The notes: a model not told the origin generated them from the sequence alone. Shown: positions 1 to 26,676, counted from the first letter of the stretch. The stretch: 57,940 nt of DNA from an uncultured archaeon (GCA_964551725.1 CAZKED010000005.1:1-57940); one strand, 5' to 3'. Program-made: numbers and translations.

Positions 1-3000
1 GTGTTTCCTCCTTGTCCGTACCATGTTTCTCCTGTGAGTTGTAGTGGTGTTTTTGTGTGAAGTGCTTTTTCTGTGTAGTGGGTTGGCGTGATTGTTGTGT
101 CTGTTTCACTGCAAGTGAATCCTATTGTTGTTCCGTTTGGTAGGAAGGTTGTTCCTGTTGTTGTGTCTTCCGCTGTTAAGTGTTCCATGTATTTGTTTTC
201 CGGTTGGTTGCAAGCGGTTGTTTCCTCAAGTGTTGTGTTAATTGTTTCCGAGCCCTTCCTCCATTCAACCAGATAATCAATGCCCTCTCCGTATGTTTCC
301 TCAGTGTTTTCTGTTATAATGGTATCTCCTTCAAACAAAGCATAGTATAGTTCTGTCGGCTGGCTTGTTTGTGTTTGGAATTTTAGTGGGTATGATTCCT
401 TGTAGTAGAGTTTGTATAATGGGTTTTCTCCTTCCTGTTCGAGTTTTAGGTGTATTATTGTTCCGTCTTGTAGTTCTGCCGGCGTATTGTATTGGTATGT
501 TTGGATTATTCCTATTCCGAGTGAGTCTGTGCTGAGGGGTTGTATTGTTTCTTCGCTTGCGTAAGCGGGAATGCTTTCCCCTTTTATTTCGTCCACTAAG
601 GGTGTGGAATTTCTTTTTTTGAGGAACAGGTTTTGTGAATATTTTGTTCCTTGTTCCGAATCCAGTTCTGCAAGACTTTTTAGTTTTGAGAGGGAAACGG
701 TTGTGTTTTCGTATCCTGTTTCTGTTTTTGTGGTTGCCAAGGTTATTGAGTATTGCCCGCTTACTGTTTCTCCCACGTTGTAGTTCCATTGGCTTAAGTC
801 CAGTAGGTTTGTGTTTTGTAGGTTGTTTTGTGTTTCAAGTTCTTGGATGTCACTAGCATATTCTTGTGTGAAATTGTTTTTGAACGCGTCATTGTAATAG
901 TCTCCTATTAGGAATGCCTGTGTTTCGGCAAGCGTTATTTCCCCAAGTTCTTCAATGTTCTTGCTTGCTTCTGCTGCGCTTTTTATCAGCGAGATGGTCA
1001 ACTGAGAGGCGTTGCAGAAATATTCTCCGCAAGTGTTTGTTGTAACCGAGCCAAAGTCTTGTGCCAGTAATACTTTATCCAACCCGTATTCTTTTGCTTT
1101 TAACGCGGTTGCTTCCTGTACTGGCAGTGGGGGAATTTCATCTGTTACAAATTCCCCATTTCTTATTGCGAATTGCAGGTAATCAGTGCTTTCATTTCTC
1201 AAATCCTTTGAGGTTAATTTTAAGGTGTAAAAGCCGTCTTCAAAGTTTGATGGATTGATGTTGCATAGTTTTTGGGTTACAAATGAGCCTCTTGTTGTTC
1301 TATATTCGTACCCAATATATTTTGTTTCTCCTTCATATCCGTTGCATAACTGAGACCATTCATTTGGGTTTTCTCCTTCGCCGTATTCAATAGTGTATCC
1401 AGTGAATATTGCTGTTCCTTCTGTGGGCCAGAATTGGGTTAGGTTTCTGTAGTCGTTGGTGGCTATGCCTGCTATGTAGTAATTGCTGCCTTCGGGGTAT
1501 ATTCCTTCTAGTATGGCAAGTGGCTGGTAGAAATATAGGTCGGTTGTTTTTTCTGGTTCAAGAACCCCCAAGCCTTGTTCGTTGAAGGAGTAATCAAACT
1601 CTTCGATTGGTTCAGTGGAATTTCTAAGCACCTGCTTTAAATAAATCCATTCATCAATATCCCTTGCGTTGCTCAGGGGGATTTTGCCCTTGAAATACTC
1701 CAGAGCCAAAGCAGCCAAACCAGTCACAACACTGGCGGAAACCCCTGTCCCGCTTTCTGGAAAATAACCTTCGGGGCATAGGGAGTTCTCGGGTGCTTGC
1801 AAAACCGCTTCTCCAGACATTGCCCCGCATATAAAGTCTCCGGGCGCAACGAAATCAGGCTTTACTCTGTAGGAATTCATTCCCTGCACTATTTGAGTAT
1901 ATTTTCCAACTATTTCTTTTTGTAGTGTGGGTCCGTGTGAGTTGTAGCATGCGAGTTGGCTTTTTTGCGGGTTTTCATCCGAGCAGTTTTCATAAACTAG
2001 TTCTTGGTTGTAGTTTTTTGAATAAATTGAACCAACACTTAAAGCATAAACATTTCCAGCAGGACCGAAAATAAATTCGCTTTCAGTATTTCCTTCATCT
2101 CCAGAATTGGTTATTATTAATACTTTATTTCTGCTTGCGTGGTCTCTTATTCTAACCTCAAGAGATTCATATGGTTTTTGTGGTTGGACCGGGTCTGTTG
2201 TTTGTTTTAGTTTTTCATAATTGATAGCGAGCAGGATTAAATCGGGTTTGTTGGTGGTTTCTCCTTTCCCCTCTGGAGAAATGGACATTCCAATCCCTGT
2301 GAGAATGGTGTCCAAGTATGATTTTCCTTCAGAGTCTGCTATTTTGTAGTTGTATAGTGTTGCGTTGGGCGCGATTCCTGTTTCGTTTCCCGCAATTATT
2401 GTTGCAAGAGTAGTTGTGTGGCCCTCGTCATCCATTATGTCAGTTCTTTCGTAGATTTTTGAGGGTTCGGGGTATCTGTTATCCCAGAAGTCGTATTCTT
2501 CCAGATCTTGTGCTGTTCTTATCACGTTTTGGAAATATTTTATTTTTTCGCAAGTGGATGGTCTTGGGTGGAATCCTATTTGATCTGAGGGCATTGGAAA
2601 ATCGTTTTCTTCGCAGTTTCCGAATTCGTCAAGTGTGTAGTCTATTCCTGTGCCGAGGATTGCTATTGTTATTCCTTGTCCTGTCTGGTTTTGAAGGTTT
2701 TCTGGTATGAGTGTTTGGGGCATTGTTCCAATACCTGTTTCCTGGAGGCTGGCTTTTTTTTCCGAGAGGCTGGCGACAATTTCGCTTACTTCTTTTTCTT
2801 TAAATGGGTTTTTTGACATGTAAATGGGAAAATTGCACATTACGTCCAATCCTTTTTCCTTCAGGGTTTTTGCCTGTTCTAGTGAAATAGCCAGAGTGGT
2901 TGATTTTGTTAGAAGCAGGTTTCTTTGCCCGAGTTCGAAGTATTTGTCTTGGTCTGTGCCGGGGCGTATTTCCAGCATTCCTTTTGCTTTTTCTATTTCC

Positions 3001-3341
3001 GCATCCAATTCATTGTTCAATTGTTTTTCTCTTATATCTGTTTTTATTTTTTGCATTTTTTGGTTGGCGTTTTTTAAGTGTGAAATCTGCGTTTTGAATG
3101 GGACAAGCGCTTCTGTTTCTTCGAGTTTTGCCAGCTTTCCTTCAATCCTGCCCTGCAATTCCTGTGATTGCGCGTACACTTCGAGCAATGAGGGCTTTTC
3201 CGGGTCTCCCATTGGAGAGCTTGTTAGTATGTAGCCGAAGCAGTCAGCGTTTTCCTCTCCGTTCTCTTTCTCTGCTGTTGCCATTGGGGCAAGGGAGAGG
3301 ACCAGAATTAACACGATTGCAGAATAAAACAGTTTTTCCAT
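1..3341 (-). CDS. Secreted subtilisin (S8)-like protein, >1113 aa, 3' end beyond window; probably catalytically dead
   Basis: Manual translation is open from ATG 3341 (GGTG RBS; signal peptide MEKLFYSAIVLILVLSLAPMATA) to base 1. It is missing from the ORF track because it has no stop in the window. S8 motifs: TGQGITIAILGTGIDY, DDEGHTTTLATIIAG, GIAPNA, KPDFVAPG, SGTGVSASVVTGLAAL. Confidence 0.85.
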   Translation of the reverse strand, partial: MEKLFYSAIVLILVLSLAPMATAEKENGEENADCFGYILTSSPMGDPEKPSLLEVYAQSQELQGRIEGKLAKLEETEALVPFKTQISHLKNANQKMQKIKTDIREKQLNNELDAEIEKAKGMLEIRPGTDQDKYFELGQRNLLLTKSTTLAISLEQAKTLKEKGLDVMCNFPIYMSKNPFKEKEVSEIVASLSEKKASLQETGIGTMPQTLIPENLQNQTGQGITIAILGTGIDYTLDEFGNCEENDFPMPSDQIGFHPRPSTCEKIKYFQNVIRTAQDLEEYDFWDNRYPEPSKIYERTDIMDDEGHTTTLATIIAGNETGIAPNATLYNYKIADSEGKSYLDTILTGIGMSISPEGKGETTNKPDLILLAINYEKLKQTTDPVQPQKPYESLEVRIRDHASRNKVLIITNSGDEGNTESEFIFGPAGNVYALSVGSIYSKNYNQELVYENCSDENPQKSQLACYNSHGPTLQKEIVGKYTQIVQGMNSYRVKPDFVAPGDFICGAMSGEAVLQAPENSLCPEGYFPESGTGVSASVVTGLAALALEYFKGKIPLSNARDIDEWIYLKQVLRNSTEPIEEFDYSFNEQGLGVLEPEKTTDLYFYQPLAILEGIYPEGSNYYIAGIATNDYRNLTQFWPTEGTAIFTGYTIEYGEGENPNEWSQLCNGYEGETKYIGYEYRTTRGSFVTQKLCNINPSNFEDGFYTLKLTSKDLRNESTDYLQFAIRNGEFVTDEIPPLPVQEATALKAKEYGLDKVLLAQDFGSVTTNTCGEYFCNASQLTISLIKSAAEASKNIEELGEITLAETQAFLIGDYYNDAFKNNFTQEYASDIQELETQNNLQNTNLLDLSQWNYNVGETVSGQYSITLATTKTETGYENTTVSLSKLKSLAELDSEQGTKYSQNLFLKKRNSTPLVDEIKGESIPAYASEETIQPLSTDSLGIGIIQTYQYNTPAELQDGTIIHLKLEQEGENPLYKLYYKESYPLKFQTQTSQPTELYYALFEGDTIITENTEETYGEGIDYLVEWRKGSETINTTLEETTACNQPENKYMEHLTAEDTTTGTTFLPNGTTIGFTCSETDTTITPTHYTEKALHTKTPLQLTGETWYGQGGN

Positions 3342-3472
3342 TAAAACACCAACCCTTAAAAGTTTTTTTTGTCTTTAGGAGGGCAAAAGGCTTTTTTTAC
3401 CTGTTAATAATTAGGGGGTTTTAGGGAATTTATTTGTTTTGATTGCCTGAATCCAAGCATTAACCGCGGGAT

Positions 3473-4936
3473 TCAGTACGCTTTTGAGAAATAGCTCTTT
3501 CGCTTGGCGGGCTTTCCGCAGTAAGCGCATTTTTCTGCCTTCTGGGCATGGAATGGAATTAAGCGGTTGCTTGCCCCTGTTTCGTCCTTTATTGCTTCCT
3601 CGCATTCCCTGCGCTCACAAAAGCCCGCTAGAACGAGCTTGTTTTCTTCCAGCGCCTGCAGGAATTCACTCCTGTTCTTTGCTTCCACGGTGTTTTCCTG
3701 CAGGAATCTTTTCTGTTTTGTGAGCAATGAGCGCTGTATTTTTTCAAGCGTCTGCTTTACTGCATTCTCCAAATCTTTTTCCTTTACCGTTTCTTTCGCG
3801 TGCGAATCCCTGCGCACGAGCACAACCTGCTTCTTTGCGAGGTCTTTTGGGCCGACTTCAACGCGCAGCGGAATGCCCTTCAATTCCCATTCGTTGAATT
3901 TCCACCCAGCCGAATAAACGTCGCGGTCGTCCAGAATTGGGTTGAATGCTGCAAGCGCCTGCTTTAGTTCGCGGGCTTTTTTCAGGACTTCCTTTTTTGA
4001 TTCCTCGAAAACAATGGGCACGATAACGAGCTTGTTTTCAGCGAGGCGCGGGGGAATTATTGCCCCGCGATCATCGCCGTGCGCCATTATTATAGCGCCA
4101 ATTAGGCGCGTTGAAATGCCCCAGGAGGTCTGCCATGCGTATTTTTCCTTTCCATCCTCGTCCAAGAATTTAATTCCGAAGGGCTTGGAGAAATTCTGCC
4201 CCAGGAAATGGGAGGTGCCCATCTGCAGTGCTTTTCCGTTGGGCATTAAGGCTTCCATTGTGAATGTTTCCTCCGCGCCCGGAAATTTTTCCATGGGGGT
4301 TTTTTTGCCTTTTAGCACGGGAACCGCGAGCCAGTTTTCCATGAGGTCAACGTATTCGTCCAGTATGTACAATGCTTCCTTTAAGGCTTCTTCGCGTGTT
4401 GCGTGCACTGTGTGCCCTTCCTGCCACAGGAATTCGCGAGTGCGGAGAAAAGGGCGAGGGTGCTTGAATTCCCATCTCACTATGTTCACCCACTGGTTGA
4501 GCAAAAGCGGCAGGTCCCTGTGGGAGCGAATCCATTTCGCGTATGATTCGTACATTATTGTTTCCGAGGTCGGGCGGATTGCAAGGCGTTCCCTCAGCTT
4601 TGTGCTTCCCGCGTGCGTGACCCATGCGACTTCCGGTTCAAAGCCCTGCACGTGCTCCTTTTCCTTTTCGAACAGGTGCTCTGGAATGAACAGGGGAAAG
4701 TAAACGTTTTTGTGCCCCGTGCTCTTTATTTTTGAATCGAATGCCCGCTGGATTTTTTCCCAGATCTGATACGCGTTGGGCTTTAAGACCATGCTCCCGC
4801 TCACGCTCGTGTAATCAGCAAAGTCGGCTTTTTGCACCAGTTGCGTGTACCACTCGCTGAAGTCCTCTTCCTTTTTTACCGTCAGACCTAACAGCGCGCG
4901 CTTGTCGTCTTCCAAGCAGTCTTTTTTGCCTGCCAT
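3473..4936 (-). CDS. proS: Prolyl-tRNA synthetase, archaeal/eukaryote type
   Basis: FSEWYTQLV, RPTSET, RWEFKHPRPFLRTREFLWQEGHT, LQMGTSHFLGQNF, C-terminal Zn cysteines and FSKAY end. Confidence 0.97.
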   Translation of the reverse strand: MAGKKDCLEDDKRALLGLTVKKEEDFSEWYTQLVQKADFADYTSVSGSMVLKPNAYQIWEKIQRAFDSKIKSTGHKNVYFPLFIPEHLFEKEKEHVQGFEPEVAWVTHAGSTKLRERLAIRPTSETIMYESYAKWIRSHRDLPLLLNQWVNIVRWEFKHPRPFLRTREFLWQEGHTVHATREEALKEALYILDEYVDLMENWLAVPVLKGKKTPMEKFPGAEETFTMEALMPNGKALQMGTSHFLGQNFSKPFGIKFLDEDGKEKYAWQTSWGISTRLIGAIIMAHGDDRGAIIPPRLAENKLVIVPIVFEESKKEVLKKARELKQALAAFNPILDDRDVYSAGWKFNEWELKGIPLRVEVGPKDLAKKQVVLVRRDSHAKETVKEKDLENAVKQTLEKIQRSLLTKQKRFLQENTVEAKNRSEFLQALEENKLVLAGFCERRECEEAIKDETGASNRLIPFHAQKAEKCAYCGKPAKRKSYFSKAY

Positions 4937-5604: not shown

Positions 5605-5608
5605 CGAG

Positions 5609-5683
5609 CGGGGCCGCCGAGATTTGAACTCGAGTCGCCAGCTCCCCGAGCTGGAATGATAGACCAGGCTACACTACGGCCCC
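5609..5683 (-). tRNA. tRNA-Pro(GGG), with C at position 33 and no encoded CCA
   Basis: GGGGCCG/CGGCCCC acceptor stem, anticodon arm CCAGC-TCGGGGA-GCTGG, T arm TCGAG-TTCAAAT-CTCGG. Confidence 0.9.
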
Positions 5684-5732: not shown

Positions 5733-8700
5733 TCAGCGGTATTTGGGGAGTATGAATTCGTCGAATTCGCTTCTCTTTTCCGGCTTCCCGGGCTTTTTGG
5801 GTTTTCGTTTTTGCACGGCTGGCTTTCCTTTTTTTGCCTTCGGCAGCCCGGTTTTCTTTTTCTTCCGCTCTTTGAATCTTTTTGCGAGAGAGCCGAGCCC
5901 TTTTTCCAGTGCTTCCGCTCTGGAGGGCATGCTGTACAACTGGAAGCCGAAGAAGACAGCCAAGGCAATGAAAAGCACTGCGAGAGCGAGAATTGTGGGA
6001 AGGGTCCAGTCGTACACCCTTTCAATGTAGGTCTGCACCGAGGTTTTTCCCGTGAAGCCCTGTTCCACCGACAGCTGAACGGAATGCTGTCCTTCGAGCG
6101 ACTGGGAAAGCTTTGCAACGTATTCCCCTGTTGCGGTATTCCTCGTCATTTCGATTTTTTGTGCTTCGCCGTCTATTGAAATTGTTGCCTTTACCGTGTT
6201 TTCTTTCACTTCGCTTCCGTCGGGATAGAAGAGTTTCGCCCTCACGGTGTCGGGCATTGAAAAATCGAATGCCGCTCTTCCTTCCCCGGGATAGGTCATT
6301 TCAACGCTCAAGAGACCCGTGAGAGGAATTGTTGCGGTTTCCCTGTCGATGTATGAGTTTTCTCCCGCTCTTGCCTGCCCGTAGATTTTGAGTTCCGCTT
6401 CCCGGAATCCGTATTCGGCGGAAGGCATTTTAATGGTTGCAGTGAATTCGTCCCCTTCGCCTTTTTTGAAGGTTCCCCTTTCCCTTGTTCCCTCTATTGC
6501 GTATGAAATCCTGTCCTGGCTTGTTTCCATGCCCTGCGGGGAGAAAACCCTCGCTTTTACCGAGACCGGCTGGCGGTATCCGTACTTTTTCCCGGTGAAT
6601 TCCGGTTCGAGTAATTCGACGTTGAGGAAGGGGTTTTTCTTTTGTATGGGGATTGCGAATTCCTTTTCAAGCCGGTTTCCGTGCGAGTCCTCCCCCCTGA
6701 GCAAAAGCACCAAGCCGTAGTCGAGGTCCTCCTCCGTTATTGTGTGGGAGATTGTCGCAATCGTTGCCTCTTCGTACTGCTTCATCCTGTACTTTTTTGA
6801 AAAGAATTTCGATTTGAGTTCCGCGTAGAATTCAACCTCTTCAGGCATTGCATTATTGGGGAGGAGCGGCCTCACTTCTATTTTGCCTACGGGGGAATTC
6901 AGGAAAAGCTCGTCCCTGAAGGGATTGCCCACTTCGAGTTCCGCGGACCGGAAGTAAATGGGCAGGAGAGCGTGCGTTTCGTGCAGCAATCCGTCGATTG
7001 TTGCCTCAACCTCCACTTCAAGGTATTCAATCGGGTCGAAAGCATATCCTGTTTCGAGCGTTGCGCTGAACTCTCCCGCACCCTCGCTTTCAAGGGAAAG
7101 GTCCTTTTTTCCCCTTATTTTAGCGCTCAGTTTCTCTATCTGCGAGAGCGCGACGGGATTGCCCATTTCGTCCAAAACCTTTAACTTGAGGGAGTATTTT
7201 TTGTCCTTTTCAAAGGGTGCTTTTGCGGAAATTTCGGGTTCCGTGAGCTTTGCCTTCAGTGCGGACCTTTTCACTTTAACTTTGACGCTCTGCTGTTCCC
7301 TGTTTCCGGATTCGTCGGTCACAACCACTGTTGCCGTGAACGTTTTCTCCGCTTCCCCTTCGCCCAAATAATAGGTGTGGCTTATTTCATAACCGCCTTC
7401 CACGGTTGTTCCGTCTCCGAAATGCCATTCGATTTTTATCGGCTCCCCTTCCGGGTCGCCTGCCTCCAGAGTGAAAGTGAAGGGCTCGCCTTCCCTCTGG
7501 GTTTCCCAGGGATTAACCGCAAGGCTTTTTATTTCCGGCTTTTTGTTCTGGGGAACGGGCTTGACTCCGACTTTGTTCGAATAAGCCGATTCGTTGCCTG
7601 CAGCATCAATTGCTGTAACCCTGTAATAATAAATGAGACCCGCGCTCACCGCGGTGTCGTCGAATTCGTTGAAGCCGGAAAATCCCGCTTCCACGTAATC
7701 CTCGTCGTTGGGTCCTTTTCTGTAAATCTTGTATCCCGCCATTTCCGCATTGTCAGCGGAGGAATTCCAGTTAAGGAAAACAATTTCCTCTCCGGCTTCG
7801 GCTCTCAGGTTCACGGGAGTGCTTGGCGGGACAGAGTCCTCTTCGGGCGGACTCGGGCTCGGGGACGGCGAAGGAGAAGGCGAGGGCGAAGGACTCGGAG
7901 ATTGAGAAGGCAAAGGGCTGGGCGAGGGGGATGGAGAAATTTCAGGACTCGGAGACGGCGGCGGGCTGGGCACCGGAACGCATTTGTGCTCAAGGCATTC
8001 CTTTCCCAGAGGGCATTCCCCGCACTGCACGCCGCATTCCTGCACAGTTCCTGCACCGCATTCCCATTTTTTTATTTCGCAGATTTCTTCGCTTGTTTTG
8101 CACACGCACTTGTGCTCCTGTTCTGCTGAAAAGCCGAGGAATCCTTCCGGGGCAAACGTAACTAGTTCCTCGGAAGTGCATTCGTGGTAAATGTCGCAGG
8201 TGCCGCAGATTACGGCGTTACCGCAGTTGTCAATGCAGTAACCGCATTCCCATTCCGCGGAGCAGCAGTTTGTGCATTCGAGTTCGAAGCACTGGTGGTT
8301 TTCGCAGTATTCTCCTGCTGCGCACTCTCCGCATTCGATTTCCGTATTGCACCTGTTCTCTGTGCCTGAACCGCACTCCCACTGCATTCCCCCGCAGGAC
8401 TTTGGAACGCACTCGCATTGGTTCTGGGAGCACTGCCATCCTTCCTCGCATTCCCCGCACTGCACGCTGCAGTCTCCCACGGAACCAGAACCACATTCCC
8501 AGTTTTCGAGAGGGCAGACTAGTGCATTGCTCTTGCACTCGCACTTGTTTTCCTCGCAAATGTGGTATTGGTCGCATGTTCCGCATTCAAGCGTGCCGTC
8601 GCATCCGTCGCTTTCGGTGCCGCATTCGAATCCCTGGGTGCACGAGGTTTTGGGCTCGCATTGGTGTTGCCTGCATTCCCCGTCCGAGCAGCCGTAGAGG

Positions 8701-9761
8701 CACTGCACCACTTCCGCCCACTCGCATTCCTTGCTTTTACGCCCCAAGAATTTTTCGTCCTTGCACACCCATTCTTGGTCGTTGCAGTCCGCTTCGCATT
8801 CTTCTGCCTGACCGTATTCTCCTGCCGGGCAGTGCTTTCCCTCAGGGCATTCGAGGCAGGCTATCTCGTGACCGCAGTTGTCGCTGAGACCTGCACCGCA
8901 TTGCCCCAAATCATAATAGTGCCCGCAGTCCCAGCATTCCTGTATCGGGTTGAATACTTCCACCCACGTGTGCCAGTTGCCGTTGCACCACCAGCCTGGA
9001 CCGTTAACGCAGGCATCCGCATCAATTTTGTATCTTCCGTTTTCCACTTTTGTCGTATCCCATTCAATGCTCAGCCCGTCGCTTGCGTCGGTGTCATTAC
9101 CTATGCTTATCTTACTCGAATAGGGCGCGCCTTCTTTTTTGTACCAGAACCTCCCGATTTCCGGTCCGGAGTTTTCCAGTTCCTCCAGCACTATCGTTAT
9201 CGTTCCGCTCACTTCGTCGTTTTCCTCCGGTGAAACAATTTTCACTCTCGGCGCGCTCACGTTAACCCTTTCTCTCTTGTTTGCGGGGTGCTGGTAGGCG
9301 CTCACCGCGCTGAACCACCATTCCTCGGAGCCCAGGCGCCGGTGGTGCCTTTTTCCTGCTGGATCCCTGTTGTCCGCCGTGAATTGGAGCACAATTCCGC
9401 CGTTGCAGTATTCCTCGCAGGGAATGTCGCACACGATTCGTTTCTGCTCGGCATAGCAGTTGATTGGAGAGCCCACGCATTCTGGCTGCCTCAGGTCTTG
9501 TACTGAGTCAATGTTTATGTTGCTGTAATAGGGCTCGCAGTCCTGCACCAGCTCGCTGGAATTGTTTTCGAATTTGCATCCTGGTATGGCAATAATTATT
9601 CCGGTTACTTTTTGCCCCGCGCCCCATCTGCATTCGGTTTCAAAACTCACCTCGCCCCATCCGTAATAGGTTTCCTTGGGGCTGATTGAGCAGTTGAAAG
9701 CCGCGGCTTGCTGTGCGAAAAGCAGAATTGCCAGCGCTGACAGCATCCAGCGAAGTTCCAT
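5733..9761 (-). CDS. Large cell-surface protein (signal peptide, Ig-like domain, Cys-rich repeats, Pro-Ser linker, FN3-like and PKD-like domains, C-terminal TM anchor, Lys-rich tail)
   Basis: 1342-aa ORF; WDTTKVENGRY Ig-like motif; repeated C..ECG...C...CGEC units; (SP)n linker; LNWNSS..GYKIYRK..YYYRVTAIDAAGNES (FN3); WHFGDGT..SHTY (PKD); TM LPTILALAVLFIALAVFFGF. Confidence 0.9.
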   Translation of the reverse strand: MELRWMLSALAILLFAQQAAAFNCSISPKETYYGWGEVSFETECRWGAGQKVTGIIIAIPGCKFENNSSELVQDCEPYYSNINIDSVQDLRQPECVGSPINCYAEQKRIVCDIPCEEYCNGGIVLQFTADNRDPAGKRHHRRLGSEEWWFSAVSAYQHPANKRERVNVSAPRVKIVSPEENDEVSGTITIVLEELENSGPEIGRFWYKKEGAPYSSKISIGNDTDASDGLSIEWDTTKVENGRYKIDADACVNGPGWWCNGNWHTWVEVFNPIQECWDCGHYYDLGQCGAGLSDNCGHEIACLECPEGKHCPAGEYGQAEECEADCNDQEWVCKDEKFLGRKSKECEWAEVVQCLYGCSDGECRQHQCEPKTSCTQGFECGTESDGCDGTLECGTCDQYHICEENKCECKSNALVCPLENWECGSGSVGDCSVQCGECEEGWQCSQNQCECVPKSCGGMQWECGSGTENRCNTEIECGECAAGEYCENHQCFELECTNCCSAEWECGYCIDNCGNAVICGTCDIYHECTSEELVTFAPEGFLGFSAEQEHKCVCKTSEEICEIKKWECGAGTVQECGVQCGECPLGKECLEHKCVPVPSPPPSPSPEISPSPSPSPLPSQSPSPSPSPSPSPSPSPSPPEEDSVPPSTPVNLRAEAGEEIVFLNWNSSADNAEMAGYKIYRKGPNDEDYVEAGFSGFNEFDDTAVSAGLIYYYRVTAIDAAGNESAYSNKVGVKPVPQNKKPEIKSLAVNPWETQREGEPFTFTLEAGDPEGEPIKIEWHFGDGTTVEGGYEISHTYYLGEGEAEKTFTATVVVTDESGNREQQSVKVKVKRSALKAKLTEPEISAKAPFEKDKKYSLKLKVLDEMGNPVALSQIEKLSAKIRGKKDLSLESEGAGEFSATLETGYAFDPIEYLEVEVEATIDGLLHETHALLPIYFRSAELEVGNPFRDELFLNSPVGKIEVRPLLPNNAMPEEVEFYAELKSKFFSKKYRMKQYEEATIATISHTITEEDLDYGLVLLLRGEDSHGNRLEKEFAIPIQKKNPFLNVELLEPEFTGKKYGYRQPVSVKARVFSPQGMETSQDRISYAIEGTRERGTFKKGEGDEFTATIKMPSAEYGFREAELKIYGQARAGENSYIDRETATIPLTGLLSVEMTYPGEGRAAFDFSMPDTVRAKLFYPDGSEVKENTVKATISIDGEAQKIEMTRNTATGEYVAKLSQSLEGQHSVQLSVEQGFTGKTSVQTYIERVYDWTLPTILALAVLFIALAVFFGFQLYSMPSRAEALEKGLGSLAKRFKERKKKKTGLPKAKKGKPAVQKRKPKKPGKPEKRSEFDEFILPKYR
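7845..7977 (-). repeat. Low-complexity Pro-Ser linker inside the surface protein
   Basis: Encodes PVPSPPPSPSPEISPSPSPSPLPSQSPSPSPSPSPSPSPSPP with varied synonymous codons. Confidence 0.85.
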
Positions 9762-10192: not shown

Positions 10193-10323
10193 TGAGCCCG
10201 GCGGGATTCGAACCCGCGACACCCAGGTCTCACCCGGCTTAAGCCCTAAGAGCGTCACCCCAAAATTCCCACAACGAACATAAGAAAATTGGTCTGGTGC
10301 TCTGCCGACTGAGCTACGGGCCC
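10193..10323 (-). tRNA. tRNA-Lys(CTT) with two introns: 40 nt at 30/31 (10254-10293) and 18 nt at 37/38 (10229-10246)
   Basis: Removing both gives a 73-nt cloverleaf with anticodon arm CCAGG-CTCTTAA-CCTGG. Intron 1 forms a strict BHB (CACC/GGTG central helix, AG|A and AC|G bulges). Intron 2 forms a relaxed BHB. Confidence 0.88.
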
Positions 10324-10568: not shown

Positions 10569-10589
10569 TTCTTCTGCCTCCTGCAAAAG

Positions 10590-10663
10590 CGGGGCCGCCG
10601 AGATTTGAACTCGAGTCGCGAGCTCCCAAAGCTCGTATGCTGGCCAGACTACACCACGGCCCC
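10590..10663 (-). tRNA. tRNA-Pro(TGG)
   Basis: GGGGCCG/CGGCCCC acceptor, anticodon arm CGAGC-TTTGGGA-GCTCG, T arm TCGAG-TTCAAAT-CTCGG. Confidence 0.95.
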
Positions 10664-15967: not shown

Positions 15968-16012
15968 GTCAGCTCTTCATCGGAACAATATCTAATTAAT
16001 ATAAAAGTGTTT
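15968..16012 (+). repeat. Cassette-boundary repeat, copy 1 (truncated/hybrid)
   Basis: GTCAGCTCTTCATCGGAACAATA identical to copies 2 and 3, followed by TCTAATTAATATAAAAGTGTT. Confidence 0.9.
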
Positions 16013-16029
16013 AAAAAAGGGATTTTTTT

Positions 16030-16374
16030 CTATTTTTTCCTGTATTTGAATTTTCTGTCGTATTTTTTGTGGTCCATCCATTCGAGAACAATGCTCACTA
16101 CGATGAGTTTTTGTTTTCCTACGGAATAGATTAGTCTCCATGCGTTTGGAAGGTTGTATTTCCACAGGTTGTCTATTCCGTATTTTTTCCTGTATTCTTT
16201 CGGAATGAGTTTCTTTGAAATTCTTATTCCGCAGAACGCGTTTTCCTCAATGTCCGAAAACGCCCTGGCTAGAAAGTCGTAAAGCTGCTTGTCTTCTGTT
16301 TTGCCTTCCAGTAATTTTGCGAATGCCCTCTTTACTTTGTCATCGGCAAAAATAACATGCGAGGGGAGTTTCAT
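16030..16374 (-). CDS. RelE-like toxin
   Basis: LWKYNLPNAWRLIYSV...VLEWMDHKKY RelE-fold pattern; ATG 16374 overlaps the upstream stop (ATGA). Confidence 0.75.
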   Translation of the reverse strand: MKLPSHVIFADDKVKRAFAKLLEGKTEDKQLYDFLARAFSDIEENAFCGIRISKKLIPKEYRKKYGIDNLWKYNLPNAWRLIYSVGKQKLIVVSIVLEWMDHKKYDRKFKYRKK

Positions 16375-16670
16375 TTCTTTGCCCTCCAGCGCAAATCCGG
16401 TCTTTTCGTGTAATGTTCGACCAGTTTCGGGTTCCAAATCCAGATTATTGCGCCGTCCTTGTCAATTAGAATCTTGCCTGAGTATTCCAGGTAGTCGAGG
16501 ATGAGGTTGAACGTCTGGTACATTGTTTTTTTTGGCAGGCTGCGCCATAATTCCGCTTTTGTCGGGTATTCCTCCGCTTTCTGTATTGCCTCTTCAACCA
16601 TTAAGACAGTGTCAAGCCTCGGATAGCGGAGAATGTTTTTGGGAGCGAAAACCGTTTTGGTTCCAGCCAT
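16371..16670 (-). CDS. Winged-HTH protein, putative antitoxin
   Basis: YPRLDTVLMVE...LWRSLPKKTMYQTFNLILDYLEYSGKI; translationally coupled to the toxin. Confidence 0.7.
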   Translation of the reverse strand: MAGTKTVFAPKNILRYPRLDTVLMVEEAIQKAEEYPTKAELWRSLPKKTMYQTFNLILDYLEYSGKILIDKDGAIIWIWNPKLVEHYTKRPDLRWRAKK

Positions 16671-16680
16671 TTAATCACTG

Positions 16681-16710
16681 TATCAATTGATATAATAAGT
16701 TATTTTAAAC
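16681..16710 (-). promoter_or_regulatory. TA1 promoter with palindromic operator
   Basis: Perfect palindrome TATCAATTGATA (16681-16692) between the TTTAAAAT box (~16702-16709, minus strand) and the ATG. Confidence 0.6.
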
Positions 16711-16729
16711 CTTTCTGCCCGGCGGACAA

Positions 16730-16805
16730 TTTTATATTAATTAGAGTGGATGCAATTAATTGTCAGCTCTTCATCGGAACAATAAATAATGTGCATAAAA
16801 GTGTT
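16730..16805 (+). repeat. Cassette-boundary repeat, copy 2 (76 bp)
   Basis: TTTTATATTAATTAGAGTGG-atgcaa-TTAATTGTCAGCTCTTCATCGGAACAATAAATAATGTGCATAAAAGTGTT. Confidence 0.95.
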
Positions 16806-16854
16806 TTTAAGGGGTTTTGGTTTCGTGCCGGCGCGATTTCTTTTGTTTCAGCGT

Positions 16855-17265
16855 CTAGAGCATTCCGATTTCTTCTTTCATTTCCTTTGTTGTTTTTGTT
16901 TCCACTCTTGCCTGTTTCTTGAATTCCTTGTCGTCGCTCCAGATTATTGTGTTTTCTTTGAGGGCGCATGCGAGGTAGAGCCAGTCTTTCGGGTCCTTGG
17001 AAAGGGATGCGGCTGCCGGCAGGTAGGGCTTTAATTCCCCGTCCTCAACAAAAACAACCTGTTCCAAGAGTTTTTCGCAGAGCGATTGGAATTCAGCAGT
17101 GTTTCCATGGTATTTGTTCTCTAGGTATGAAGCGTATTTCTGGAACTCTTTGAGCAAAAATCGCGGAGCGAAAAGCCTTATCTCCGGAACAAACCAGATT
17201 CTCCGTGTAAGGCTTTTCTTCAATAATGCGGAGAAAAGGATATTGGCATCAACTGTTGCCTTCAT
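16855..17265 (-). CDS. PIN-domain (VapC-like) toxin
   Basis: VDANILFS, LLKE, DPKDW, IWSDDKEF acidic PIN residues. Confidence 0.9.
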   Translation of the reverse strand: MKATVDANILFSALLKKSLTRRIWFVPEIRLFAPRFLLKEFQKYASYLENKYHGNTAEFQSLCEKLLEQVVFVEDGELKPYLPAAASLSKDPKDWLYLACALKENTIIWSDDKEFKKQARVETKTTKEMKEEIGML

Positions 17266-17491
17266 CCAAAAGCCTCTTGGCGTGTTTTGCCATTGACTTG
17301 TCCGCTTTTGTTGAAAGCAGTTCAATGTCCTTTTCTGTCAGTGTGCTTTTTTTCGCCAGTTTTTCGGCTGTTTCAAAGTCGTGCAGTTTCTTTTCGATCA
17401 TTGTGCGGATTGCGTTAGACCATCGAACCTCCGGATGCTGCTTCATTTTCTGCTTTGTCACGTCGCTTACGGAAAGGGTAATATTGGGCAT
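17249..17491 (-). CDS. Ribbon-helix-helix antitoxin
   Basis: MPNITLSV...KMKQHPEVRWSNAIRTMIEKKL; overlaps the PIN start by 17 nt. Confidence 0.8.
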   Translation of the reverse strand: MPNITLSVSDVTKQKMKQHPEVRWSNAIRTMIEKKLHDFETAEKLAKKSTLTEKDIELLSTKADKSMAKHAKRLLDEGNS

Positions 17492-17498
17492 AACAAAT

Positions 17499-17532
17499 CA
17501 CATAATTATTATGTGCCAATACTTATTTTAAA
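17499..17532 (-). promoter_or_regulatory. TA2 promoter with inverted-repeat operator
   Basis: CACATAA-TTA-TTATGTG (17499-17515) downstream of a TTTAAAAT box. Confidence 0.6.
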
Positions 17533-17556
17533 TGTATTGTTTGGGCATTACTGGGG

Positions 17557-17632
17557 TTTTATATTAATTAGAGTGGTTCGCTTTAATTGTCAGCTCTTCA
17601 TCGGAACAATAAATAATGTGCATAAAAGTGTT
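17557..17632 (+). repeat. Cassette-boundary repeat, copy 3 (76 bp)
   Basis: Identical to copy 2 apart from the 6-bp segment (ttcgct vs atgcaa). Confidence 0.95.
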
Positions 17633-17704
17633 CTCTCTTGTCATCCTTAAAAAAGAAATCTTTTTAACGATTAAAATTTAATATAAGTGAGAGAGGTGAT
17701 AAAT

Positions 17705-18133
17705 ATGTCAACGGAAGAAAACAAGGCTGTTGCCCGCCGCATTTTTGAAGAGATTATCAACGGGCGGAATCTGGAAGTGGTGGAAGAACTCATTGCTCCC
17801 GGTTATTTATTCCATGGCTCTGGCGGTCGCGAATTGCGCGGTCCCGAGGGATTCAAACAACTGATTTCCCAGCCCCATGCTGCCTTTCCAGATTTTCATC
17901 TCACGGTTGAGGACATAATTGCAGAGGGAGATAAAGTGGCGTGCCGTTTCTCGACCAAGGGCACACACAAAGGCGTTCTGGGCGGCATTCCGCCCACAAA
18001 GAAGCAGGTTACGAACAGGGGGATGTCGGTTTATAGAATTGCCGGCGGCAAGGTTACAGAGCACTGGGAAATCCTGGACATGCTGGGTGTTATGCATCAA
18101 CTCGGCGTGATTCCGCAGGAGCAAAAGAAATAA
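17705..18133 (+). CDS. SnoaL-like ester cyclase family protein
   Basis: MSTEENKAVARR, AFPDFHLTVEDIIAEGDKVACRF..GTHKG, GGKVTEHW..DMLGVMHQLG; GGTGA RBS. Confidence 0.9.
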   Translation: MSTEENKAVARRIFEEIINGRNLEVVEELIAPGYLFHGSGGRELRGPEGFKQLISQPHAAFPDFHLTVEDIIAEGDKVACRFSTKGTHKGVLGGIPPTKKQVTNRGMSVYRIAGGKVTEHWEILDMLGVMHQLGVIPQEQKK

Positions 18134-24341: not shown

Positions 24342-24421
24342 TTTACCGCAAGAATTGAATCCGATACTTTTTTTAAAGTGAATTGCGTTATTGTTCTACA
24401 TTGCTGTTTTACGGTGACCGC

Positions 24422-25951
24422 ATGGAGGAACAGGAACACTATTCGATGAACCTTAAGGTCAAAACCATTCCGGTTGTTGCAAAAATATTCATTTCAATAC
24501 TCCACGAGGAGACCGCGAAAAGCCTGGGCATTCTTCCCCTGGACCGGGCGGAGCTCGTGCACGAGGAAAAGAACCGCTCTGTTATCACGGTGGTGGACAC
24601 AACCGATTCAATGATTAAAAGGGACGAAATAGGGATTTTCGAGGACGTCAGGCAGAAACTGAACGTGAAGGAAGGGGAAAAGCTCGAGGTTTCAGGCGTT
24701 TCAACTCCCGAATCATTGGAATTCATAAAGAAGAAAATGCACGGCGGAACCCTGGGCGAAACCGAGATTAAAAAAATCGTCGAGGACTTCGGCGAAAACA
24801 AGCTGTCGGATATAGAGGCAAGCGCTTTCATGACTTCGGTGTTCATTAACGGTTACACACTGAACGAAACGGTTGCAATGGCTAGGGCGCTTACTGAAAA
24901 CGGCATTACGCTTAAACTGGACGTTGAACCTGTCGTGGACAAGCATTCCATAGGCGGCGTGAACGGCAGGGCGACAATGCTCATTGTCCCGCTAGTTGCC
25001 TGCGCTGGTCTCTACATTCCCAAAACGTCCTCGCGCTCCATTACCTCGGCTGCCGGCACCGCTGACGCAATGGACGTGCTCGCCAATGTGAGCCTTTCCG
25101 CAGAGCAGATAAAATCCATTACGGAAAAGCACGGCGGCGTAATTGCTTGGGGTGGTTCCCTTGACCTCGCGCCGGTGGACGACAAAATAATAAAGATTGA
25201 AAGACCGCTCTCCATGGACCCCAAGGGGCAGGTTATTGCCAGCGTTCTGGCAAAGAAGGCGTCTGTTGGCTCGAAGTACGTTGTTGTCGACATTCCCATT
25301 GGCAAGATGCTTAAGGTCAAGAGCAGGCAGGACGGAAAGGAACTCGCGGGAATGTTCATAAAGGTGGGAAGCAAGCTGGGAATGAAGGTTGAAGCCGTGC
25401 TTACCGACGGAGAGCAGCCGAGCGGTTCGGCTTTCGGTTCCGCCCTTGAAGCGGCGCACGTTTTGAAAATCCTCGAAGGACAGGTTTACGATTCCCTGGC
25501 GCAGAAGAGCTGCGAGTTGGCGGGAGTGCTGTTCGAGTTGGCCGGTAAGAGAAAGCAGGGAAGGGGATACGATTACGCAAAGAAACTCTTGGAATCGGGC
25601 GAAGCCCTCAAGAAATTCCAGAAAATAATAAGAGCGCAGGGAAAGCGCATTGACCGCTCAAAGGACGTTCCTGTAGCGCCTTACAAGACGGAAGTGCACG
25701 CCGGCAAAGCCGGCGAAGTGAGCTATATCAACGTGAAGAAAATGATAAACATCGCAAAGATTGCGGGCGCTCCCTCGGATGTCACTGCCGGCGTTCTCCT
25801 AAACGTGGAGGTCGGGCAGAAAGTCAAGGCAGGCGAATTGCTTTACGAAATCCACGCGGAGAACCGCAGGAAACTCGACCTTGCGGCAAAGTACGCGGCA
25901 AAGGACAAAGCCGTGCAGATGGAAAAAATAATAATCGAAAGGTTTATTTAG
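24422..25951 (+). CDS. AMP phosphorylase (archaeal nucleoside monophosphate phosphorylase)
   Basis: N-terminal barrel domain, DKHSIGGV, PKTSSRSITSAAGTADAM, YVVVDIPIG. Confidence 0.92.
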   Translation: MEEQEHYSMNLKVKTIPVVAKIFISILHEETAKSLGILPLDRAELVHEEKNRSVITVVDTTDSMIKRDEIGIFEDVRQKLNVKEGEKLEVSGVSTPESLEFIKKKMHGGTLGETEIKKIVEDFGENKLSDIEASAFMTSVFINGYTLNETVAMARALTENGITLKLDVEPVVDKHSIGGVNGRATMLIVPLVACAGLYIPKTSSRSITSAAGTADAMDVLANVSLSAEQIKSITEKHGGVIAWGGSLDLAPVDDKIIKIERPLSMDPKGQVIASVLAKKASVGSKYVVVDIPIGKMLKVKSRQDGKELAGMFIKVGSKLGMKVEAVLTDGEQPSGSAFGSALEAAHVLKILEGQVYDSLAQKSCELAGVLFELAGKRKQGRGYDYAKKLLESGEALKKFQKIIRAQGKRIDRSKDVPVAPYKTEVHAGKAGEVSYINVKKMINIAKIAGAPSDVTAGVLLNVEVGQKVKAGELLYEIHAENRRKLDLAAKYAAKDKAVQMEKIIIERFI

Positions 25952-26676
25952 TAACACAATTTAAACGCAAAAGAAACGACATCCTTTCCAGAACCATCTT
26001 TGATGTGATCTGGGTCCCAAATATAATCGTTTTCTAATATTTTCCTTTCATTGTTTAATTCGGCGATAGCCTTGCAAGCAATCATTCTAGCCGACCCATA
26101 TCCGAATATCCAAAATACTTCGTTTTCATTTTTTATTAATTTTAAAATTTTTGATTTAGTGGAGGAGATAGAGTCATCTCCTTTAACAAAAATAGTTATT
26201 CTGTCCCAATTTTCAATCATTTTGTCAAATTTTTTAGCGATATCCTCTGTAAGTAGATTTTCTAACTTTAATTTGCTTAGATATGCTATAACGCTATGAA
26301 TAGCCCCCGTAGACCCCATGTTTATTACAGTTACGCCCTTGGGGCCCTCTCTGCTTAGAGCTTCTGTCTTTATAGAAGAAATATCGATTTTTTCACCCAA
26401 CCTGTTGCTTTCTGCAACGACTAGCCCCACACGGCAGAAATCAATTGCCCAATGATCAGCGCCTACACATTCCTTGAGTCTTTTGAACGCATCTCTTTTT
26501 GATATTTCAGCAAGAGCATTTCCCATTTTGTGGGATGCGCTAAAGCCATATTTTTTCCTATTAGCAAGTTTGCTAAGTTTGCCTAAAATCTTATCAATTA
26601 CAGCAGCGGTGGCCCCCTTAGACATTGAATAAACTAATTCTTTCAGGATTTTTTGTGGGGATTCATCCCCACTCAT
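25948..26676 (-). CDS. Hypothetical protein (AT-rich insert)
   Basis: 242-aa ORF, no motif recognised. Confidence 0.75.
   Translation of the reverse strand: MSGDESPQKILKELVYSMSKGATAAVIDKILGKLSKLANRKKYGFSASHKMGNALAEISKRDAFKRLKECVGADHWAIDFCRVGLVVAESNRLGEKIDISSIKTEALSREGPKGVTVINMGSTGAIHSVIAYLSKLKLENLLTEDIAKKFDKMIENWDRITIFVKGDDSISSTKSKILKLIKNENEVFWIFGYGSARMIACKAIAELNNERKILENDYIWDPDHIKDGSGKDVVSFAFKLCY

What the first reader, a model, noticed from the sequence alone, without database searches (positions are those of the whole stretch)
1..3341. Giant secreted subtilisin homologue with a dismantled catalytic triad
Seen: the catalytic Asp position reads AILGTGIDY (Gly, codon 2652-2654, instead of DTG) and the nucleophile position reads SGTGVSA (Gly, codon 1743-1745, instead of GTSMA). 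His is retained (EGHTT, 2418-2420) but its HGT context is altered, and the oxyanion Asn is Asp (NSGDEG). The fold-defining motifs and an intact >1100-codon frame are kept. Established: S8 catalysis needs Asp-His-Ser. Inference: this is a pseudoprotease repurposed as a surface scaffold, peptide-binding adhesin or protease decoy, which is relevant to host attachment in a DPANN cell. It is invisible in the supplied ORF track.
Basis: partly seen in the sequence, partly recalled or inferred. Interest (0 to 1): 0.7.

Follow-up and report, generated by a model that had tools for sequence, protein, structure and literature searches.

The report
Secreted dead subtilase of a DPANN archaeon
This gene encodes a 1162-residue secreted protein of a small DPANN archaeon that keeps the fold of a subtilisin protease but has lost its catalytic residues; it probably works as a non-enzymatic surface or binding protein, which is unusual but not without precedent.

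Summary
The minus strand of 1-3341 carries 1113 stop-free codons of a 1162-aa secreted protein. It passes the Pfam S8 threshold (75 bits). It reads Gly at the catalytic Asp (codon 2652-2654), Gly at the Ser (1743-1745) and Asp at the oxyanion Asn (2097-2099). His is kept, but its HGTH context is lost.

Among the 110 nearest relatives that span the whole domain, 107 have intact D/H/N/S. The only exceptions are this protein and its two full-length homologues (51-56% and 36% identical). All three share Asp->Gly and Asn->Asp. They vary at His (H/Y/L) and Ser (G/N/T), and all have lost the SLG substrate strand. The loss is therefore old, not recent decay.

The organism is archaeal and closest to Candidatus Iainarchaeum (DPANN). 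The gene has a foreign base composition and sits among paralogous giant secreted proteins. Its first ~740 codons are hypervariable between contigs whose downstream DNA is 100% identical.

The C-terminal ~420 aa form an unannotated module. It is also found fused to an intact S8 protease, a CN-hydrolase and a glucosaminidase-like protein.

"Pseudoprotease" is supported. "Adhesin or decoy for host attachment" remains inference. I rate it a new variant of a known kind, comparable to CspC/CspA.

The parts
3..3341 (-). Codons 1-1113 of a 1162-codon gene (protein P0001). The last 49 codons lie beyond the window start.
   Evidence: Translation without stops. Full-length protein and encoding contigs. 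100% DNA match of the window to L001.
3273..3341 (-). Sec-type signal peptide, residues 1-23 (MEK / hydrophobic core / MATA then EKE).
   Evidence: Read directly from the sequence. It is the only hydrophobic stretch in the protein.
2727..3272 (-). N-terminal region, residues 24-205. The E/K/Q-rich stretch (about residues 57-125) looks helical from composition. It is followed by a propeptide-like segment.
   Evidence: Sequence. The only hit for residues 57-162 is a coiled-coil-type chance match to PDB 4ijj. No Pfam I9 hit.
2805..2936 (-). Possible vestige of the C-terminal half of an I9 subtilase propeptide (residues 136-179, ...LAISLEQAKTLKEKGLDVMCNFPIYMS).
   Evidence: hhalign against the propeptide regions of 103 active relatives: P = 4e-4, probability 35%. 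hmmsearch: P0005 E = 0.014 and P0002 E = 0.019, both above all 1000 shuffles; P0001 itself had no reportable domain. The evidence is weak.
1587..2681 (-). Subtilase (S8) fold domain, residues 221-585, non-catalytic.
   Evidence: Pfam PF00082, 75 bits, E = 7.9e-21. 58 of the 99 columns that are at least 85% conserved in active relatives are retained.
2652..2654 (-). Gly230 (GGC) at the catalytic Asp position.
   Evidence: Gly in all three clade members, Asp in 107/107 other relatives.
2418..2420 (-). His308 (CAC) at the catalytic His position, in HTTT instead of HGTH.
   Evidence: Tyr in P0002 and Leu in P0005.
2220..2228 (-). Ala-Ile-Asn 372-374 in place of the Ser-Leu-Gly substrate-binding strand (subtilisin BPN' 125-127).
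   Evidence: S/L/G are 100/90/95% conserved in active relatives. The clade reads AIN, TFN and NFD.
2097..2099 (-). Asp415 (GAT) at the oxyanion-hole Asn position.
   Evidence: Asp in all three clade members, Asn in 107/107 others.
1743..1745 (-). Gly533 (GGG) at the nucleophile Ser position (GTGVSAS instead of GTSMAxP).
   Evidence: Asn in P0002 and Thr in P0005.
1122..1541 (-). Post-S8 beta-sandwich-type domain, residues 601-740 (EDGFYTLKLT...DYLQFAI), followed by a Pro-rich linker (PPLPV).
   Evidence: Many active relatives align through this region, up to query residue ~730. The aligned residues 664-722 of the homologue P0002 give a weak Por_Secre_tail match, E = 0.0011. Invariant motif in the clade.
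3..1112 (-). C-terminal module, residues ~744-1162 (the window holds it up to residue 1113). It is an unannotated ~420-aa family.
   Evidence: Also present in P0017, P0068/P0153, P0133 and an L086 protein. No Pfam family. No credible PDB match by sequence or fold.
3356..3441 (-). Upstream region with an A/T-rich TATA-like box (TTTTAA, 15-20 nt before the ATG). A ~60-nt stretch here is 85% conserved upstream of the divergent homologue P0002.
   Evidence: Upstream sequence. L001 9901-9961 against L003 1401-1459, 85%. Promoter function is inferred, not tested.

Best explanation
Shown. The gene encodes a secreted, very acidic, disulfide-rich, multi-domain protein of an Iainarchaeota-like DPANN archaeon. 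The domain order is: signal peptide, propeptide-like N-terminal region, subtilase-fold domain, beta-sandwich, Pro-rich linker, ~420-aa C-terminal module. The subtilase domain is a non-peptidase homologue of family S8. It lacks the catalytic Asp, the Ser nucleophile, the oxyanion Asn and the SLG substrate strand. The same is true of its only two full-length homologues, so catalysis was lost in their common ancestor and the protein has been kept since.

Inferred mechanism.
- Catalytically dead subtilases cannot cut off their own propeptide. The N-terminal region therefore probably stays attached to the remodelled cleft, as in CspC.
- The whole N-terminal 'head' (residues 24-740) would then act as a non-enzymatic binding or recognition surface.
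- The C-terminal module is conserved, and elsewhere it is fused to real hydrolases. It would act as the constant part that targets or docks the protein, either to the cell's own envelope or partner proteins from the surrounding locus of giant secreted proteins, or to a target surface.
- Heads and tails are reshuffled between strains or copies by recombination near the linker, which gives a variable head on a constant tail.
For: S8 homology and exact substitutions.

The loss is confined to a small clade. 107/107 nearest relatives have D/H/N/S. P0001, P0002 and P0005 read G-H-D-G, G-Y-D-N and G-L-D-T.

The cleft is remodelled but the scaffold is kept. 58, 46 and 52 of 99 conserved columns are retained, and the losses cluster at HGTH, SLG, N155 and GTSMAxP.

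The protein is maintained, not decaying. All three are intact ORFs of 1119-1179 codons at 36-56% identity. dN/dS is about 0.23-0.27 in codons 1-740 with dS saturated above 2, so this is an upper bound. It is 0.09-0.16 in codons 861-1162.

Secreted and not anchored. There is a signal peptide only and no other hydrophobic segment. Net charge is -77. There are 14 Cys, 12 of them conserved between P0001 and P0002. Cytoplasmic neighbours have pI 8-9.5 and secreted neighbours pI 4.5-5.6.

Propeptide vestige: (weak).

Dead subtilases stay uncleaved, with the propeptide held in the cleft (CspC/CspA): PMC7200643.

The C-module is a separate family fused to hydrolases. P0133 has an intact S8, a PKD domain and the module. 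P0017 has a CN_hydrolase and the module. P0068 has the module and a glucosaminidase-like region.

Locus. The gene is flanked by paralogous secreted proteins of 1342, 1320 and 854 aa with PKD/Ig domains, plus an LRR protein.

Variable head, conserved tail. L001 and L003 are 100% identical for 10 kb after the stop. Inside the gene, identity falls from 96% to under 40%. Contigs from two samples that also contain P0002 break at or near the head/tail junction.

Archaeal/DPANN origin.
Against: - No binding partner, localisation or expression data exist. The surface, adhesin or docking roles are inference from architecture and neighbourhood.
- No anchor motif was found: no transmembrane segment and no archaeal sorting-signal family among the NCBIfam hits.
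- P0001 itself gave no significant propeptide match.
- The fold of the C-module is unknown. Only one of five AlphaFold models was confident.
- It is unresolved whether P0001 and P0002 are alleles of one locus or paralogues. One of the three observed gene arrangements could be an assembly chimera across a 131-nt identical stretch.
- No structure model of the S8 part was made, so an unconventional active site could not be excluded in three dimensions.
Confidence: 0.6

Rival explanations
1. Regulatory or sensor pseudoprotease working with an active subtilase, in the manner of CspC/CspA with CspB. The dead domain would bind a ligand or a partner protease and control its activity. It could also act as a decoy or inhibitor for foreign proteases.
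For: The only well-studied S8 pseudoproteases work this way (PMC7200643). The best PDB and NCBIfam partial matches around the Ser->Gly region are to CspC. An active protein with the same S8, sandwich and C-module architecture exists elsewhere (P0133).
Against: No active S8 gene lies in the 57.9-kb window or in the flanks that were fetched. The CspC model score is 24.6 against a cut-off of 675. The canonical substrate-binding strand is destroyed, which makes a substrate-mimicking decoy less likely.
Confidence: 0.15
2. The functional part is the C-terminal module, for example a surface- or membrane-interacting effector. The dead subtilase head would be only a carrier, shield or folding aid inherited from an active ancestor such as P0133.
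For: The module is the most conserved part: 92% aa identity over residues 861-1162 against 39% in the head, with dN/dS 0.09-0.16. It occurs without any S8 domain in P0017, P0068, P0153 and the L086 protein.
Against: The high identity of the tail includes synonymous sites and grades into 100% identical flanking DNA. Much of it therefore reflects recent recombination rather than constraint. The head is still under purifying selection at 36% identity across three members.
Confidence: 0.15
3. It is still a hydrolase that uses a non-canonical catalytic arrangement, for example His308 with another nucleophile such as Ser535, or Thr in P0005.
For: His308 is retained in P0001, and a Ser lies two residues after the former nucleophile position.
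Against: Neither residue is conserved in the clade. His is Tyr or Leu, and position 535 is Ala in P0002 and P0005. The oxyanion Asn, the Asp and the SLG strand are all gone in every member.
Confidence: 0.03
4. It is a decaying gene (pseudogene in the making) or an assembly or annotation artefact.
For: The gene has an atypical composition, GC3 0.40 against 0.57-0.61 in its neighbours. Several contigs break inside it.
Against: The identical full-length ORF was recovered in independent ENA and JGI assemblies. Two diverged homologues also keep frames of over 1100 codons. dN/dS is well below 1. Conserved Cys pairs and scaffold motifs are kept.
Confidence: 0.03

Closest known systems
CspC and CspA, subtilisin-like pseudoproteases of Clostridioides difficile and other Peptostreptococcaceae (PDB 6MW4; NCBIfam NF040808)
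   Same: Both are S8-fold proteins with substituted catalytic residues that are kept as functional non-enzymes. Ser->Gly is shared with CspC (GTGVS in both). As in CspA, the pseudo-active-site residues vary between homologues (PMC7200643). The propeptide is expected to stay uncleaved.
   Different: - Independent origin: only about 70 residues align, and the NF040808 score is 24.6 against a cut-off of 675.
- CspC keeps the Asp and changes His->Thr. Here the Asp and the oxyanion Asn are lost and His is variable.
- This protein is archaeal, secreted and twice as long, with a beta-sandwich and a 420-aa C-terminal module.
- There is no spore-germination context and no adjacent active partner.
Active archaeal and bacterial multi-domain subtilases with an I9 propeptide, S8 domain, beta-sandwich and FG-GAP or PKD domains
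   Same: They share the S8 scaffold, the conserved Cys pairs, the insertion before the SSRGP motif and the following sandwich domain. P0133 also shares the C-terminal module.
   Different: Those proteins have intact D/H/N/S and score about 210 bits against PF00082, compared with 75 bits here. Identity is at most 30%.
SPEARE proteins of Nanohaloarchaeota (PMC6642349)
   Same: Both are giant DPANN extracellular proteins that combine a serine-protease-like region with adhesion-type domains and have been proposed to mediate cell-cell interaction.
   Different: SPEARE proteins are 3,300-8,500 aa. They are membrane-anchored, with a cytoplasmic restriction-endonuclease part and laminin-G domains. None of these features is present here. 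No homology to SPEARE was tested or seen.
MEROPS category 'non-peptidase homologues' of family S8
   Same: By definition this category holds proteins that match the S8 family but lack one or more catalytic residues. This protein fits exactly.
   Different: It is a bookkeeping category, not a functional family, and says nothing about mechanism. That MEROPS uses this category is from my own knowledge.

Membership tests
Peptidase family S8 (subtilases; Pfam PF00082) | Sequence profile match above the curated threshold across the whole domain | tested here: met
   75 bits against a cut-off of 21.8, E = 7.9e-21, profile positions 1-281 of 288.
Peptidase family S8 (subtilases; Pfam PF00082) | Catalytic triad Asp-His-Ser in that order | tested here: not met
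   Gly230, His308, Gly533. The 107 nearest active relatives all have D-H-S.
Peptidase family S8 (subtilases; Pfam PF00082) | Oxyanion-hole Asn and SLG substrate-binding strand | tested here: not met
   Asp415, and Ala-Ile-Asn at 372-374.
Peptidase family S8 (subtilases; Pfam PF00082) | N-terminal I9-type propeptide (intramolecular chaperone) | tested here: inconclusive
   No Pfam I9 hit. hhalign P = 4e-4 and probability 35% for residues 136-179. hmmsearch was weak for P0002 and P0005 and gave nothing for P0001.
Csp pseudoproteases (CspC; NCBIfam NF040808 CspC_non_triad) | Full-length match to the curated CspC model | tested here: not met
   24.6 bits against a cut-off of 675. Only residues 524-599 align.
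Csp pseudoproteases (CspC; NCBIfam NF040808 CspC_non_triad) | Pseudo-active site with Asp kept, His->Thr and Ser->Gly; cspBA-cspC context in spore formers | tested here: not met
   The pattern here is Gly, His, Gly. The genome context is archaeal. The CspC pattern is taken from PMC7200643.
Mycosin (TIGR03921) | Equivalog model score | tested here: not met
   34.2 bits against a cut-off of 278.75.
SPEARE proteins | Transmembrane anchor, cytoplasmic type III restriction-enzyme domain and laminin-G domains | tested here: not met
   No hydrophobic segment other than the signal peptide. S8 is the only Pfam domain.
Class II membrane-fusion proteins (flavivirus E, bunyavirus Gc, HAP2, fusexins), considered for the C-terminal module only | Three-domain beta architecture that superposes on solved members | tested here: not met
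   These proteins top the Foldseek lists for two models. However, E = 5e-4 to 1e-2, probability is at most 0.2, TM-score is below 0.1 and rmsd is about 30 A.
Class II membrane-fusion proteins (flavivirus E, bunyavirus Gc, HAP2, fusexins), considered for the C-terminal module only | C-terminal stem and transmembrane anchor | tested here: not met
   The protein ends ...MYWNKEKIMKIA with no hydrophobic segment.
Diversity-generating retroelement target | Template/variable repeat pair and a nearby reverse transcriptase | tested here: not met
   Self-comparison of the window against the 13.3 kb of L001 that overlaps it shows only the tRNA-Pro copies, repeats inside ORF1342 and one 51-nt 80% match. 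The head alleles differ at saturation rather than at adenine-specific sites. No reverse transcriptase was looked for beyond the ORFs that were scanned.

The most novel reading that the evidence does not exclude
The conserved C-terminal module could be a very remote structural relative of class II membrane-fusion glycoproteins. It would be carried on secreted hydrolase or pseudo-hydrolase heads by DPANN-like organisms to engage or remodel a partner cell's envelope. The dead subtilase head would then provide strain-specific recognition. The only support is that class II fusogens repeatedly rank first in Foldseek for two independent models. Set against this are negligible TM-scores, the lack of a membrane anchor, and the helical N-terminal part of the module.
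Probability: 0.03. Interest if true: 0.9.

Novelty: new variant of a known kind. Interest (0 to 1): 0.45.

Why it matters
Subtilase pseudoenzymes are well documented only for the Csp germination proteins of Clostridia. This protein shows an independent, old loss of catalysis in a secreted archaeal subtilase. All four catalytic-machinery positions and the substrate strand are replaced, yet three diverged lineages keep the protein under selection.

It lies in a locus of giant secreted proteins in a DPANN genome. The molecular basis of cell-surface interaction in that group is largely unknown. The protein also has a variable head on a constant tail, a pattern typical of surface proteins under diversifying pressure.

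The work also defines an unannotated ~420-aa module shared with secreted hydrolases. That module would merit a family description and a structure.

In practical terms, automated annotation would call this gene an 'S8 family serine peptidase', which would be wrong about its activity.

Tried and rejected
1. First attempt at the 1.84-billion-protein representative search: the P0001+P0002 alignment had more than 1200 profile positions, so the job failed. It was repeated with P0001 alone.
2. GTDB genome scan with the P0001+P0002 alignment: no relative was found. The species, or at least the gene, is absent from the representative genomes.
3. No S8-like gene lies next to ProRS in 80 other archaeal or bacterial loci, so the position is not conserved.
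4. Word-indexed search with the C-module alignment returned nothing, not even P0001. I treat this as a prefilter failure, not biology. A search with the P0068 module added only P0153.
5. Viral-contig scan for the module: nothing found.
6. Profile search of the module against PDB sequences: the only hits were designed WD40 repeat proteins whose score comes from summing seven sub-threshold repeats. Rejected as spurious. A Pfam scan of the module members gave nothing.
7. AlphaFold model of the P0001 module: pLDDT 59.7, too poor to use. The model of the homologous P0153 module had pLDDT 74.9 and pTM 0.76, but the other four models scored 50 or less. Foldseek against PDB and BFVD gave no match with TM above 0.15.
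9. Halophily as the reason for the acidity: rejected, because cytoplasmic proteins of the window are basic.
10. N-glycosylation sequon enrichment: 14 observed against 11.1 +/- 3.0 expected, which is not significant.
11. dN/dS on the head is unreliable because dS is saturated. I use it only as an upper bound.
12. A literature search for the sample identifiers gave no information on the environment.
13. No structure model of the S8 part was made.
Full report
**1. Observation**

The reverse strand of window 1-3341 translates into 1113 codons without a stop. It begins with a typical signal peptide, MEKLFYSAIVLILVLSLAPMATA|EKE. The ORF runs off the window start, so the mechanical ORF list does not show it.

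The complete protein (P0001, 1162 aa) was recovered from the protein collection. It sits on an ENA contig of 90.7 kb (L001) and a JGI contig of 11.4 kb (L002), both identical to the window in the gene.

Pfam places residues 221-585 in Peptidase_S8: 75 bits against a cut-off of 21.8, E = 7.9e-21, profile positions 1-281 of 288.

- Gly230 = 2652-2654
- His308 = 2418-2420
- Asp415 = 2097-2099
- Gly533 = 1743-1745

PDB alignments put these residues under the Asp, His64 and catalytic-Ser positions of solved subtilases.

**2. More than chance, and not recent decay**

An exhaustive search of 1.84 billion representative proteins gave 951 hits with E below 1e-3. I aligned the 110 listed relatives that span both ends of the domain. 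The four catalytic-machinery columns read D/H/N/S in 107 of 107 sequences. The three exceptions are:

| Protein | Asp | His | Asn | Ser |
|---|---|---|---|---|
| P0001 | G | H | D | G |
| P0002 (1179 aa, 51-56% identical) | G | Y | D | N |
| P0005 (1119 aa, 36% identical over the full length, E = 1.7e-130) | G | L | D | T |

Asp->Gly and Asn->Asp are shared by all three, so they predate the divergence. The His and Ser positions have drifted since. That resembles what is described for CspA homologues (PMC7200643).

Active relatives have 99 columns that are at least 85% conserved. The three proteins keep 58, 46 and 52 of them. The losses cluster around the cleft:
- HGTH becomes HTTT, YDTG or LSTP.
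- The Ser-Leu-Gly substrate strand becomes AIN, TFN or NFD.
- GTSMAxP becomes GTGVSAS, GTNVAAA or GTTTASA.

Scaffold glycines, the KPD motif and the Cys pairs are kept.

dN/dS between P0001 and P0002 is about 0.23-0.27 in codons 1-740, with dS above 2. Because dS is saturated, this is an upper bound. It is 0.09-0.16 in codons 861-1162.

The nearest proteins with an intact triad are at most 30% identical.

**3. Anatomy**

- Residues 1-23: signal peptide.
- Residues 24-205: an E/K/Q-rich region that looks helical from composition. It ends in a segment (136-179) with weak similarity to the C-terminal half of the I9 propeptide of active relatives. hhalign gives P = 4e-4 and probability 35%. hmmsearch ranks P0002 and P0005, but not P0001, above 1000 shuffles.
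- Residues 206-600: the dead subtilase domain.
- Residues 601-740: a sandwich-type domain with the motif EDGFYTLKLT. Many active relatives share it.
- A Pro-rich linker follows.
- Residues ~744-1162: a module with no Pfam family and no meaningful PDB sequence match.

The protein has no hydrophobic segment other than the signal peptide. Its net charge is -77. It has 14 Cys, of which 12 are conserved between P0001 and P0002. No archaeal sorting signal was detected.

**4. The C-terminal module**

The same module occurs in other proteins:
- P0133: an intact S8 protease with a PKD domain and the module, i.e. an active counterpart of this architecture.
- P0017: a CN_hydrolase domain followed by the module.
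- P0068 and P0153: the module at the N-terminus, followed by a glucosaminidase-like region.
- A 789-aa secreted protein on a 1.19-Mb metagenomic contig (L086).

All of these sit in singleton or very small clusters. The pseudoprotease clade and most module carriers are unnamed in public sources; only P0133 carries a name, 'subtilisin family serine protease/PKD repeat protein'.

AlphaFold gave a poor model for the P0001 module (pLDDT 59.7). The model for the P0153 module was better (pLDDT 74.9, pTM 0.76), but only one of five models was good.

Foldseek against PDB and BFVD found nothing credible. Class II viral fusion glycoproteins top all three lists, but with E = 5e-4 to 1e-2, probability at most 0.2, TM-score below 0.1 and rmsd about 30 A. 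I record this as an unexplained lead, not a match.

A module fused to different hydrolases is most simply read as a targeting or docking domain. That is an inference.

**5. Organism and neighbourhood**

The window is archaeal. It holds an intron-containing tRNA and an isolated 5S rRNA. It also encodes AglB, GatD, an AMP-phosphorylase-like protein, TBP, KsgA, DUF655, and an ATP-dependent DNA ligase and diphthamide synthase.

Its ProRS is 71-72% identical to those of Candidatus Iainarchaeum MAGs. The next best hits are other DPANN lineages.

The gene lies between ProRS and, in L001, a 1320-aa PKD protein and an 854-aa protein. These two, together with the 1342-aa ORF at window 5733-9761, are paralogous secreted proteins. 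An LRR protein follows.

The pseudoprotease gene is compositionally foreign. Its GC3 is 0.40, against 0.57-0.61 in the genes on both sides. P0002 has GC3 0.39 and P0005 0.29. No S8 gene lies next to ProRS in 80 other genomes. This points to acquisition by horizontal transfer, which is an inference.

**6. Variable head, conserved tail**

L001 (with P0001) and L003 (with P0002) are 100% identical for 10 kb downstream of the stop codon. Inside the gene, identity falls from 96% at the 3' end through 73% to under 40% before codon ~740. The upstream genes also differ: ProRS in L001, and an unrelated 388-aa ORF, p388, in L003. An independent contig, L084, confirms the p388-P0002 arrangement.

L002 carries P0001 but switches to HicB and AMMECR1 genes right after the stop.

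P0001 and P0002 co-occur in at least two samples. In both, the ProRS-P0001 contig ends at or near the head/tail junction, at L001 positions 12222 and 12090.

All three arrangements share an identical 131-nt stretch at the 3' end of the gene. I therefore cannot decide between alleles of one recombination-prone locus and two paralogous loci with one chimeric contig. Either way, recombination has homogenised the tail while the heads are anciently diverged.

No DGR-type repeat pair is present in the window or the L001 stretch that overlaps it.

**7. Mechanism, with status of each step**

- Shown: the protein cannot use the subtilase mechanism. It is secreted, maintained by selection and modular.
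- Established elsewhere: subtilases with catalytic substitutions do not autoprocess and keep their propeptide. CspC and CspA function as non-enzymatic sensors or regulators. Restoring their triad does not restore activity (PMC7200643).
- Inferred: here the propeptide-like region stays bound to a remodelled cleft. The head serves as a strain-variable recognition surface. The tail docks the protein to a conserved partner.

Because the SLG strand is gone, binding of peptides in the canonical substrate mode is unlikely.

**8. Comparison and novelty**

This protein works like the Csp pseudoproteases in being a dead subtilase kept for a non-catalytic role, but it is not a member of that family. The NF040808 score is 24.6 against 675, the substitution pattern differs, and the domain is archaeal.

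In MEROPS terms it is a non-peptidase homologue of S8. It differs from the SPEARE proteins of Nanohaloarchaeota in size, anchoring and domain content.

I rate it a new variant of a known kind: an independent pseudo-subtilase lineage with a new architecture and an undescribed C-terminal module. Interest is moderate at 0.45. The finding is real and clean, but the function remains inferred and S8 pseudoenzymes have precedent.

Noticed in passing
window 5733-9761 (-); L001 13515-17477 and 17569-20133 (+): Three paralogous giant secreted proteins (1342, 1320 and 854 aa) flank the pseudoprotease. They are about 25% identical over 600-900 aa, acidic, and carry PKD/Ig-like domains. Together they form a surface-protein locus. 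The 1342-aa gene also has an internal ~107-nt repeat at 72% identity.
   Followed up: partly
window 1-4000, 16000-18000, 26000-30000, 54000-56000: Low-GC islands (41-45%) occur in a ~50% GC genome. The first is the pseudoprotease gene, with GC3 0.40 against 0.57-0.61 in its neighbours. The 16-18 kb island holds a PIN-domain gene (16855-17325). The 26-30 kb stretch holds KsgA, DUF655 and TBP genes.
   Followed up: partly
window 5608-5683, 10589-10663, 10193-10323 (all -); 30095-30210 (+): There are two tRNA-Pro genes (GGG and UGG) whose ~77-nt stretches are 87% identical. A third tRNA of 131 nt was found only by Rfam and probably contains an intron. A 5S rRNA gene stands alone, next to the TBP gene.
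   Followed up: no
window 33413-47900 and 51600-57050: A cluster for protein glycosylation or envelope synthesis: AglB/STT3 (33413-35632), a GT4-family sugar-phosphate transferase, GT1/GT4 glycosyltransferases, a B12-radical-SAM enzyme, two sulfatases (51604-52818 and 55838-57046) and an LPG-synthase-like membrane protein. It is consistent with heavily modified surface proteins.
   Followed up: no
L002 10020-11371: In one assembly the pseudoprotease gene is followed directly by a HicB-like antitoxin gene and an AMMECR1 gene instead of the PKD protein. The switch occurs within a few bases after the stop codon.
   Followed up: partly
L003 150-1316; L084 (matches L003 22-4465): A 388-aa ORF with weak alpha/alpha-toroid-type matches (pectate lyase, squalene-hopene cyclase, LanC-like; E about 1e-3) precedes P0002. 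It shares the low GC3 (0.42) of P0002. It has no counterpart in the window.
   Followed up: partly
window 24383-25951 (+): An AMP phosphorylase-like protein (Glycos_trans_3N, Glycos_transf_3 and PYNP_C domains). By my recollection this enzyme type belongs to the archaeal AMP/RuBisCO nucleotide-salvage route found in many DPANN genomes.
   Followed up: no
L087 1-1383 (-) and 4891-5253 (+): The distant clade member P0005 is flanked by what looks by eye like an archaeal-type AAA ATPase gene (not scanned against any library) and by a small Cys-rich secreted protein. Its contig has 38% GC, so the clade spans lineages of different base composition.
   Followed up: no
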